Of a DNA stretch of 64,000 nucleotides, positions 42,001-45,000 are shown piece by piece (position 1 is the first letter of the stretch; each line of letters starts with the position of its first letter). Source of the DNA: Escherichia coli. Lineage in GTDB: Bacteria > Pseudomonadota > Gammaproteobacteria > Enterobacterales > Enterobacteriaceae. The position numbers were made by a program. Location of the stretch: NCBI RefSeq assembly GCF_051903065.1, contig NZ_CP178438.1. One strand, written 5' to 3'.

Positions 42001-45000
42001 GTGTAATGCGTGTTGCCGTTTACGGGTACAGGGACAGGAGCATAGACCGTCATCTCTTCAAAAACATGCATGTACATGTTTTTGTCATCGACGGCCTGCG
42101 CCACATCAGCGCCACATAAAATGACGCCAGGAATAAGAACTCGCTTCATTTATTTATATCTCCGTACAGCAGGGCTTTTATTGTTTTTATAAAACCGCGC
42201 TAATGTCACAAATATCATCTGCCAGGTTCCAGACACCGGGTTGATGTGTAACCATAATGACGCCGCTTGTGGGTAGTTTTTCACGCACTAAACGCAGTAA
42301 GCGGATAGCCTCTTGTTCCTCAAGATGAGAGGTAGTTTCGTCAAGAAATATCCATTTCGGACGTCGTAAAATTAATCGTGCCAGGGCGATACGTTGTTTT
42401 TCGCCGCTGGAAAGAATATCTCCCCAGCGATCGTGGTCATGAATACGCGCAGCCAATTTCCCCAGACCAACCTGATGCAGTACTTCGCTCAACGATTTAT
42501 CGTCTACGAGCAGGGGAAGTGCTTTACAAATAATCTCTTTCAGTAAGCCGCTTTTGATTAACGGTGTTTGTGACACATACCAACTGTCAGCAGGAGAAGA
42601 AATATCACCTTTAAACCACGGCCAGCAGTGGGATAATGTTTTAAGCAGTGTGGTTTTTCCCGCACCAGAGTAACCTTTCAGTAATAGCCATTTGCCTGGC
42701 GAAACATGAAAGTTCAGGTTCTCTAATATGATCTTATTATCAGGCGTACGAATACTCGCATCAGCCACTTGTACCGCATGTTGGCAATTTTTAGGCTTAT
42801 TCGTAGGGCGCTGTTCAGTGAGTTGATGGAACTCATACAAGCGATCGATAACCGCAGCCAGTTCAGCAAGTTCGTCATATTTATAGATAAACCAGCTTAA
42901 ATTGTTCGATACCAGCATAAATGCCTGGCGCGATTTCATCAGTCCGCCCAGATTGATCTGCCCGCTAATAAACTGCGGCAATAACAGAAAGTAGGGAAGA
43001 ACGCTAAGCGAGCGCGAATAAATATTTTGCCAGTAATCAAGCCACCGCTGACGATTCATTAAACGATGCCAGTTCTCTTTAATGGTATGAAAATTGTCGC
43101 TCAACTCCTGGCGTTGTAGAGACTCAGCATTGCTTAGCGCAATCAGTTCAGCCTGCTTATTATGCTGCACAAGATTTGTTCGAAATGTCGCTTCGCTACG
43201 TTGTTTTTCCACATTAAGCGGACGAATACGTTTACCAACCTTATGGGTAAATAAAGTTCCACCGATCACAATGAGCACAACGGTATAGACCATATACCCC
43301 TGGATATTCCATTCTGTTCCACCAACAGTGAATGAGAGCGTACCCGCGCTTTGCCAAAGAATAACGGTAAAGGTGATCAGCATGCTAAGTGACTGGATGA
43401 AGCCAAATGAAAGACTGAGCGTTTTGCTGATCAGTAAGAGAATGTCTTCAGCGATACGTTGGTCAGGGTTATCTGTATTTTTATGCTCGCCGTAGATCTG
43501 CGTGAAGTAGTAGTTTTTATCTGCAAACCAGCGATTAAGGTAGTAATCTGTTAACCATTCGCGCCAGCGAATAGTCAGCAGTTTAATTAACCATGTTTTG
43601 TTTACGGATATTAATACAAAGATCCCCAGCAGGGCAGGGAACCAAAGGACAAGCTGCCAAAGCTTATCGGTTTCTTTCTGGCTTAGCGCATTGAAAAAAT
43701 CATTATTCCAGTCGTTTAACCAGACCTGAATTTTAACCACGCCAAGGATCATGGCGAGGATAATAATGATTAACAACACTGAAGTTTTATTATTCTTACG
43801 CAGCCAAAAGGGCTTCAGCAGACAGAGATACTTTGCTATCAACATACAAAACGTAATGGGAATGGTTATCATTAGCGAAAATTGATTGTGCCATCCAATG
43901 ATTATCTATGGCAATGATTTACTGATGAAATTTATTTAAGTATCATTTAACAATATGAAATATATAGAAATTTTTAATTTTCAGTGGTTATGGTTATGCT
44001 ATTGATAATCAAGGATATTGCTAATGCCCTGACGCATACCACGTATGCCAGGATTTTCGCAAGGGAAGATGATGATGACGAAACACCCAACAGGAATTTA
44101 TGTCGGGTGTCTTGTTAAGGCCATAAGAAGGAGGCTAAGACTGGAGCAAAGAGGGCGTGTTATTAATTATTCTCCATTTGTTTTGCAACTTCTGGAATAA
44201 TTCAGGCAAGAAAGTTTCTGTTAGCGGAATACCATCCTGAGCATCAGTATTGGAATAGACACCAAAGCGTGCGGGCGCTCGACCGGTCATTATTGCGGCG
44301 CGGGAGGGGCCGGAAACACCGTGTGCCACATAGCCGTTAGTAAAACGTACGCCTTCATCCATTAATGAAAGGAGCGTCGGCGTTGATTTTTGTGCAGCTT
44401 CAATGGCTTTATCTATCCCTATTTTGTAGGTATCGACAACTTCACGATTTTCCATTGTTTTTGGGTCAAAAGATCCCTTATCAAAAGGAAGTTGTCCATA
44501 ACCAAGATCATCCATGGTTAGTACGATAATATTTGGCTTTCCTTTGGTACTGTATTCAGTCGGCGTAAAGTCTGAGAAAGCAACGTTTGTTTTGGTTGCT
44601 TTCAGCTTTACATCATCTGCCGCATGAGCAGCAAATGCAGCCATACCAGATGCCAGTATCAAAGATATCGAGGTACTTACGACACTTTTCTTTAATGCAG
44701 ACTTCATAAATGTTCCTCTTCTTATTGTACTTAATTCCAAAGTAATTTTACGAAGAGAAATAAGTGGATGTAAGTGAAGTTAGTCACATAAAGAGATAGC
44801 AGATTTAGCTAAAAAAAGGGAAATAACAGTCCATAAAGCGTTGACATTACTTTCTGTTCTACTAAGTAATTTCTCGCCGATAAACAACTAATATATTGAT
44901 ATTTAATAAATTATTGTATTTTACTGACAAAATGCCGAATTGAGATCATAAATAATCATGCAACAGGTTATGCAAATGCATAAATATGTGATGAATGTCA

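What the first reader, a model, noticed from the sequence alone, without database searches (positions are those of the whole stretch)
43873..44740. Sulfatase gene ydeN truncated and its maturase gene (ydeM) apparently absent
The ORF keeps the signal peptide and the Ser-type sulfatase active-site motif (SGPSR) but terminates at about 201 aa after a frame divergence near 44184. Only about 1.2 kb separates yddA from ydeO, too little for a 560-aa sulfatase plus a radical-SAM maturase. This implies a deletion of roughly 1.9 kb or more that removed the 3' two-thirds of ydeN and all of ydeM.
Basis: partly seen in the sequence, partly recalled or inferred. Interest (0 to 1): 0.45.

Follow-up and report, generated by a model that had tools for sequence, protein, structure and literature searches.

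The report
Deletion remnant of ydeN sulfatase gene
A 2,347-base deletion in one E. coli lineage removed most of a putative sulfatase gene (ydeN) and nearly all of its maturase gene (ydeM), leaving a dead 190-codon stub; this is ordinary lineage-specific gene loss that RefSeq already flags as a pseudogene.

Summary
The window is E. coli chromosome, running pqqL-yddB-yddA-[ydeM/ydeN]-ydeO-safA-ydeP.

- **The deletion.** An intact relative with 100% identical flanks (ECNB21-M121) and K-12 both show that 2,347 bp are missing between window 44189 and 44190. This corresponds to K-12 NC_000913.3 1579660-1582006.
- **What remains.** ydeN codons 1-172 survive, including the signal peptide and the Ser-type SGPSR motif, followed by an 18-aa out-of-frame tail. 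The ORF is 44135-44707, 190 aa from the true ATG. The last 27 nt of ydeM also survive, and the small yneP ORF has an altered C-terminus.
- **The junction.** It is blunt, with 0 bp of microhomology and no IS scar.
- **What is absent.** No radical-SAM gene and no copy of the deleted DNA lie elsewhere in the window.
- **Distribution.** The deleted segment is present in 5,323 of 5,426 complete E. coli genomes. The exact junction occurs in only two of them (23CRST027 and 23CRST031). The identical truncated protein is on 23 contigs from other public assemblies, so this is a clonal marker and not an assembly artefact.
- **Prior annotation.** PGAP already annotates the stub as a pseudogene.
- **Unexplained.** Several independent deletions have breakpoints within about 80 bp of this ydeN breakpoint, one of them 1 bp away. 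The evidence for this clustering is weak.

Interest is low.

The parts
44135..44707 (-). Truncated ydeN ORF (ydeN'). It encodes 190 aa: 172 native residues plus the novel tail KLQNKWRIINNTPSLLQS, with the stop at 44135-44137.
   Evidence: The Pfam Sulfatase PF00884 match covers only profile positions 1-90 of 301. PGAP marks the equivalent region of 23CRST027 as 'incomplete; missing C-terminus'.
44190..44707 (-). Native 5' part of ydeN: 518 nt, which is codons 1-172 plus 2 nt. It contains the signal peptide, the DDLGYG metal-site motif and SGPSR (44300-44314).
   Evidence: It is 100% identical to ECNB21-M121 ydeN.
44189..44190 (.). Deletion junction, GTTTTGCAAC|TTCTGGAATAA. 2,347 bp are missing relative to intact relatives (L003 3101-5447, or K-12 1579660-1582006).
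   Evidence: There are 0 identical bases on either side of the two breakpoints and no IS sequence.
44163..44189 (-). Remnant of ydeM: the last 8 codons (VAKQMENN) plus the stop.
44075..44200 (+). yneP-like small ORF (41 aa) that overlapped the 3' end of ydeM. The deletion replaces its last two codons and its stop (...FVLQHP* becomes ...FVLQLLE*).
   Evidence: yneP is annotated in K-12. A hypothetical protein, WP_141094503.1, is annotated at the same place in 23CRST027.
44708..45110 (-). Intact ydeO-ydeN intergenic region. It holds the ydeN upstream region and, at 45039-45061, a bidirectional terminator-like hairpin after ydeO.
   Evidence: It is collinear with other E. coli at about 98% identity.
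42187..43872 (-). yddA (ABC transporter, 561 aa), the intact left flank.
45111..45872 (-). ydeO (AraC-family acid-stress regulator, 253 aa), the intact right flank.

Best explanation
The feature is a pseudogene remnant left by a single spontaneous 2,347-bp chromosomal deletion in the ancestor of one E. coli clone.

**What the deletion did.**
- It joined ydeN nucleotide 518 to the last 27 nt of ydeM.
- It removed the C-terminal 388 codons of the periplasmic Ser-type sulfatase YdeN.
- It removed 377 of the 385 codons of YdeM, the radical-SAM/SPASM anaerobic sulfatase-maturating enzyme.
- It clipped the end of the small overlapping gene yneP.

**How it probably formed.** The junction is blunt, with no microhomology and no IS or recombinase scar. 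The most likely mechanism is homology-independent illegitimate joining of two breaks. This step is inferred, not shown.

**Consequences.**
- The remaining 190-codon ORF keeps the ydeN upstream region and the signal peptide.
- It may therefore still be transcribed and exported.
- It holds under a third of the sulfatase domain and has no cognate maturase next to it, so it cannot be an active sulfatase (inferred).

**Order of events.** The deletion predates a second lesion in the window's own sub-lineage, an IS1 insertion in ydeP.
For: **Architecture.**
- Intact ydeN and ydeM are present in K-12.
- They are also present in ECNB21-M121, whose flanks are 100% identical to the window.

**Junction.**
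- It maps to 44189|44190 with 0 bp of microhomology.

**Distribution.**
- The deleted segment is present at >=80% coverage in 5,323 of 5,426 complete E. coli genomes.
- The exact junction is found only in 23CRST027 and 23CRST031.
- The identical 190-aa product is on 23 contigs from independent runs and assemblies. All 7 that were examined carry the same junction.
- Some carriers have intact ydeP. Others (the window and GCA_036912935.1) have ydeP::IS1.

**Loss of function.**
- The stub's Pfam Sulfatase match covers profile positions 1-90 of 301, against 1-301 for the intact protein.
- YdeM has Radical_SAM and SPASM domains.
- No YdeM-like sequence and no copy of the deleted DNA are anywhere in the window.

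**Annotation and literature.**
- PGAP annotates the stub as a pseudogene.
- ydeN and ydeM are reported as co-transcribed and AraC-regulated (PMC10878103).
Against: - Nothing contradicts the deletion itself.
- The mechanism of formation is only inferred from the absence of repeats.
- A weak clustering of independent breakpoints near the same ydeN site hints that the break position may not be random. Simple illegitimate joining does not explain that.
- Whether the stub is expressed was not tested.
- Whether the loss is neutral or selected was not tested.
Confidence: 0.95

Rival explanations
1. The deletion was made by an insertion sequence, for example as an IS1-mediated adjacent deletion.
For: - IS1 is active in this lineage. 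One copy sits 2.4 kb away in ydeP (46555-47322).
- Another IS1 interrupts the autotransporter gene at the window's end.
- The closest intact relative, ECNB21-M121, has an IS1 247 bp to the left of the left breakpoint.
Against: - IS-mediated adjacent deletions keep the IS at the junction. The junction here has no IS sequence.
- The ydeP IS1 has an intact 9-bp target duplication (CCATGCGGC), so it is a simple insertion.
- That IS1 is absent from other carriers of the deletion.
- The window has a single, unduplicated copy of the ECNB21-M121 IS1 target site.
Confidence: 0.03
2. The truncation is an assembly or sequencing artefact, such as a collapsed or chimeric contig.
For: None specific. Some other truncated YdeN entries in public data are clearly artefacts, including an adapter-derived tail in P0004 and a palindromic chimera in P0022.
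Against: - The same junction is present in two complete genomes.
- It is also in at least seven independently assembled contigs from different sequencing runs, at 100% identity.
Confidence: 0.01
3. The ydeN breakpoint is not random. A break-prone or nuclease-targeted site near ydeN nt 494-518 repeatedly seeds deletions that run toward ydeM, or selection repeatedly favours inactivating ydeNM.
For: **Independent events with ydeN-side breakpoints close together (L003 coordinates).**
- The window retains from L003 5448.
- JML285 retains from 5449.
- A1.S1.65 retains from 5472.
- Contig L016 breaks at 5448-5453.
- Contig L017 breaks at 5464-5476.
- H9Ecoli retains from 5397.

**Probe counts.** Nine records have a break inside a 120-bp probe at the site. 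Three control probes elsewhere in ydeN give 2, 3 and 5.
Against: - Ascertainment is biased. The queries were centred on this site, and the protein query was residues 1-172.
- Two of the nine records are clonal.
- L016 is a 1.75x-coverage metagenome contig.
- Junction types differ among the events: some are blunt, one has 6 nt of microhomology and one has a 13-nt overlap.
- No stable single-strand hairpin is predicted at either breakpoint (z +0.6 to +1.3).
- With about 20 lesions in a 450-nt span, a pair within 1 nt is expected by chance.
Confidence: 0.12

Closest known systems
E. coli K-12 ydeN (b1498, putative sulfatase) and ydeM (b1497, putative anaerobic sulfatase-maturating enzyme)
   Same: - The locus is the same, with the same flanks (yddA and ydeO).
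- The first 172 codons of ydeN are conserved.
- The upstream region is conserved.
- The signal peptide and the SGPSR motif are conserved.
   Different: - 2,347 bp are missing.
- ydeN is cut to 31% of its length and fused out of frame to the last 27 nt of ydeM.
- ydeM is gone.
RefSeq pseudogene AC6IZ1_RS09060 in E. coli 23CRST027 (NZ_AP045789.1), annotated as 'sulfatase-like hydrolase/transferase; incomplete; missing C-terminus'
   Same: It has the identical sequence and junction, at 100% identity over 4.5 kb.
   Different: - The window's genome additionally carries IS1 in ydeP.
- It also has one SNP, at 32964.
Other independent ydeN/ydeM lesions in E. coli
   Same: All are deletions within the same two-gene locus that leave 5' ydeN stubs. 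Several have blunt junctions.
   Different: They have different breakpoints, sizes and lineages:
- mip270_04 has a 1,071-bp deletion.
- AR_0006, elppa5 and FDAARGOS_1279 share a deletion of about 1.1 kb that spares ydeM.
- JML285 has a deletion running from yddA codon 3 into ydeN.
- A1.S1.65 has an internal deletion of about 255 bp.
- F070 has IS2 in ydeM.
Formylglycine-dependent S1 sulfatases with radical-SAM anSME maturases (Klebsiella AtsA/AtsB type; own knowledge)
   Same: - The intact locus has the classical pairing of a Ser-type sulfatase with an adjacent Radical_SAM+SPASM maturase.
- The closest solved structures to intact YdeN are S1_19 sulfatases.
   Different: In the window neither partner is functional, and the pairing survives only as a scar.

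Membership tests
S1 (formylglycine) sulfatase, Pfam PF00884 | N-terminal signature (C/S)-x-P-x-R-x4-TG carrying the residue that is converted to formylglycine | tested here: met
   The stub carries SGPSRAAIMTGR at residues 132-143. The Ser aligns with the Cys of CGPSR in PDB 9hh3 and with the Ser of the 9hh2 chain.
S1 (formylglycine) sulfatase, Pfam PF00884 | Complete alkaline-phosphatase-like sulfatase domain of about 300 profile positions | tested here: not met
   The stub matches profile positions 1-90 of 301 (E 1.5e-13). The intact relative matches 1-301 (E 1.7e-70). The stub is therefore a gene fragment, not a functional family member.
Ser-type (as opposed to Cys-type) sulfatase | Ser at the formylglycine position | tested here: met
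   The motif is SGPSR, not CxPxR.
Anaerobic sulfatase-maturating enzyme (radical SAM + SPASM) | A gene with the CX3CX2C radical-SAM motif and a SPASM domain, adjacent to the sulfatase gene | tested here: not met
   - Intact YdeM from ECNB21-M121 has Radical_SAM (E 2.5e-22) and SPASM domains.
- In the window only 27 nt remain.
- A tblastn of YdeM against the whole window finds nothing at E<=1.
Deletion pseudogene | Collinear, near-identical flanks in a close relative that has the intact gene, with one defined junction | tested here: met
   The flanks are 100% identical to ECNB21-M121 and exactly 2,347 bp are absent.
IS-mediated deletion | An IS element or IS end at the junction | tested here: not met
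   There is no IS sequence at 44189|44190. The nearest IS1, at 46555-47322, has an intact 9-bp target duplication.
Short-repeat (slipped-mispairing) deletion | A direct repeat at both breakpoints with one copy retained | tested here: not met
   There are 0 identical bases at the breakpoints. The only direct repeats within +/-50 bp are 6-mers that are out of register.

The most novel reading that the evidence does not exclude
The ydeN breakpoint marks a recurrent deletion-initiation site at about nt 494-518 of ydeN. Independent E. coli lineages have repeatedly lost ydeN-ydeM sequence in the same direction from this site. This would imply a site-specific fragile or nuclease-targeted sequence, or recurrent selection against the YdeN/YdeM sulfatase system in some gut niches.
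Probability: 0.1. Interest if true: 0.35.

Novelty: already known. Interest (0 to 1): 0.1.

Why it matters
It matters little beyond strain typing.

- **Lineage marker.** The junction is a clean marker for one E. coli clone. That clone includes the Ecuadorian human isolates 23CRST027 and 23CRST031, GCA_036912935.1 and about 20 sequencing runs.
- **Phenotype.** The clone lacks the YdeN/YdeM sulfatase system. One study speculates that this system acts on sulfated mucin glycans in the gut (PMC10878103). Carriers could therefore serve as natural knock-outs for testing that idea.
- **Possible wider interest.** If the weak breakpoint clustering is real, it could point to a local fragile site or to recurrent selection for losing the system.

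Tried and rejected
- **Translocation of the deleted DNA, or a radical-SAM gene elsewhere in the window.** The blastn and tblastn searches found none.
- **Microhomology, direct or inverted repeats at the breakpoints.** There is 0 bp of microhomology. The only notable match is an 8-bp inverted AT-rich match (AATTATTC/GAATAATT) flanking the new junction, which I judge to be chance.
- **Hairpin-prone DNA at the breakpoints.** Folding energies are no better than those of shuffled sequences.
- **Structured RNA in 43000-47500.** There were no Rfam hits.
- **Promoter and terminator scan.** It found nothing beyond the ydeO terminator.
- **Literature on ydeN/ydeM deletions.** Nothing specific was found. 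There was only context on co-transcription, AraC control and a speculated role in mucin use.
- **The other five complete genomes with a break in the 120-bp probe at the site.** They could not be listed, because the tool shows only the best-ranked or evenly spaced records.
- **IS1-mediated deletion, assembly artefact and 'the short form is ancestral'.** All three were rejected, as set out under the rival explanations.
- **Technical note.** Loci fetched as the second or later call of a turn (L002, L006, L007, L015) were not available to scripts. They were read with get_sequence or DNA alignment instead.

Full report
**What is in the window.**
- The region is E. coli chromosome with the gene order pqqL, yddB (39777-42149), yddA (42187-43872), a short sulfatase-like ORF (44135-44740), ydeO (45111-45872), safA (45946-46143) and ydeP. 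All are on the minus strand.
- The ORF listed as 201 aa starts at an upstream TTG. By homology the start is the ATG at 44707, which gives 190 aa.
- The ORF has a Sec-type signal peptide, the DDLGYG metal-site motif and SGPSR at residues 132-136 (window 44300-44314).
- In alignments to solved S1_19 sulfatases, the first Ser of SGPSR sits on the catalytic Cys (CGPSR in 9hh3).

**Mapping the deletion.**
- K-12 has yddA, yneP, ydeM (385 aa), ydeN (560 aa) and ydeO in this interval.
- E. coli ECNB21-M121 has intact ydeM and ydeN. It is 100% identical to the window over 247 bp to the left and 656 bp to the right of the junction.
- The window lacks ECNB21-M121 locus positions 3101-5447, which is 2,347 bp. 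Read from the K-12 sequence, this equals K-12 1579660-1582006.
- The junction is GTTTTGCAAC|TTCTGGAATAA at window 44189|44190.
- There are no identical bases on either side of the two breakpoints, no direct repeat in register and no IS sequence.
- What remains is 518 nt of ydeN (172 codons plus 2 nt), read on into an 18-aa tail (KLQNKWRIINNTPSLLQS), and the last 27 nt of ydeM (VAKQMENN plus the stop; 44163-44189).
- The small plus-strand gene yneP overlaps the 3' end of ydeM in K-12. It survives as a 41-codon ORF (44075-44200) whose last residues change from ...QHP* to ...QLLE*.

**Functional state.**
- The stub matches only profile positions 1-90 of 301 of Pfam Sulfatase. The intact protein matches 1-301.
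- Intact YdeM has Radical_SAM and SPASM domains.
- Neither a YdeM-like sequence nor any part of the deleted DNA occurs elsewhere in the 64-kb window.
- The ydeO-ydeN intergenic region is intact, so the stub may still be transcribed. It cannot, however, be an active sulfatase. This last step is inference.
- The literature describes ydeN and ydeM as co-transcribed and AraC-controlled, with a speculative role in mucin glycan use (PMC10878103).

**Population context.**
- The deleted 2,347 bp are present at >=80% coverage in 5,323 of 5,426 complete E. coli genomes.
- The exact junction is in two of them, 23CRST027 and 23CRST031, both from human faeces in Ecuador. There PGAP already labels the stub 'incomplete; missing C-terminus'.
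- The identical 190-aa product is on 23 contigs from other runs and assemblies. All seven that were examined carry the same junction at 100% identity.
- The feature is therefore a real, inherited clonal marker and not an artefact.
- The window differs from 23CRST027 by one SNP and by an IS1 in ydeP (46555-47322, with the 9-bp duplication CCATGCGGC).
- That IS1 junction is found in no complete genome, but it matches the contig end of GCA_036912935.1.
- Carriers with intact ydeP also exist, so the ydeNM deletion came first.

**Mechanism.**
- The blunt, scar-free junction argues against slipped mispairing, IS-mediated adjacent deletion and engineered deletion.
- Homology-independent illegitimate joining is the best remaining explanation. 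It is inferred only.

**An unexplained side observation.**
- Other lineages carry independent lesions in the same locus. They are mip270_04; AR_0006, elppa5 and FDAARGOS_1279; JML285; A1.S1.65; H9Ecoli; and F070 with an IS2 insertion.
- Several have ydeN-side breakpoints close to the window's, which retains sequence from L003 5448:
  - JML285 retains from 5449.
  - A1.S1.65 retains from 5472.
  - Two metagenome or Logan contigs break at 5448-5453 and 5464-5476.
  - H9Ecoli retains from 5397.
- A 120-bp probe at the site is broken in 9 records. Three control probes are broken in 2, 3 and 5 records.
- Ascertainment was biased toward this site and the junction types differ between events.
- No hairpin is predicted at the breakpoints.
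- With about 20 lesions in about 450 nt, a 1-nt coincidence is expected by chance.
- I treat this as weak and unproven.

**Verdict.**
- This is ordinary lineage-specific gene loss and is already flagged as a pseudogene in RefSeq.
- Interest is low.

Noticed in passing
window 46555-47322 (IS1), with target duplications at 46546-46554 and 47323-47331: A 768-bp IS1 is inserted in ydeP, the acid-resistance oxidoreductase gene, near codon 709 of 759, with a 9-bp duplication (CCATGCGGC). It is absent from all 5,426 complete E. coli genomes, including the otherwise identical 23CRST027. The contig end of GCA_036912935.1 matches it.
   Followed up: yes
window 58915-63956, and 63957-64000: A large ECSE_1600-family autotransporter gene appears frameshifted (ORFs 58915-62910 and 62877-63947). 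In 23CRST027 it is interrupted by another IS1 at exactly the point where the window ends. PGAP marks it as a pseudogene there.
   Followed up: partly
L003 (ECNB21-M121) 2086-2853, equivalent to window 43943-43951: The closest relative with intact ydeNM has its own IS1 between yddA and yneP, with a 9-bp target duplication, 247 bp from the window's left breakpoint. The window has no IS1 or scar at that position.
   Followed up: yes
ydeN nt 494-518 (L003 5448-5476; window 44190-44214): Independent deletions in other E. coli cluster here. They are JML285, A1.S1.65, contigs L016 and L017, and H9Ecoli 51 bp away. The breakpoint in JML285 is 1 bp from the window's. A 120-bp probe at the site is broken in 9 records, against 2-5 at control probes.
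   Followed up: partly
window 44075-44200 (+): The yneP small-protein ORF is retained but its C-terminus is rewritten by the deletion. In this lineage its sequence also differs internally from K-12 (RLEQRGR instead of RMELKES).
   Followed up: partly
window 56576-56845: An HTH-domain pseudogene fragment lies upstream of hipBA. This comes from the PGAP annotation of the identical 23CRST027 sequence, converted to window coordinates.
   Followed up: no
proteins P0004 and P0022 (public database entries, not in the window): Some truncated 'YdeN' entries in public protein collections are artefacts. P0004 ends in a Nextera adapter translation (LSLIHISEPTRH). P0022 is a palindromic chimera that reads back along the opposite strand.
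   Followed up: no
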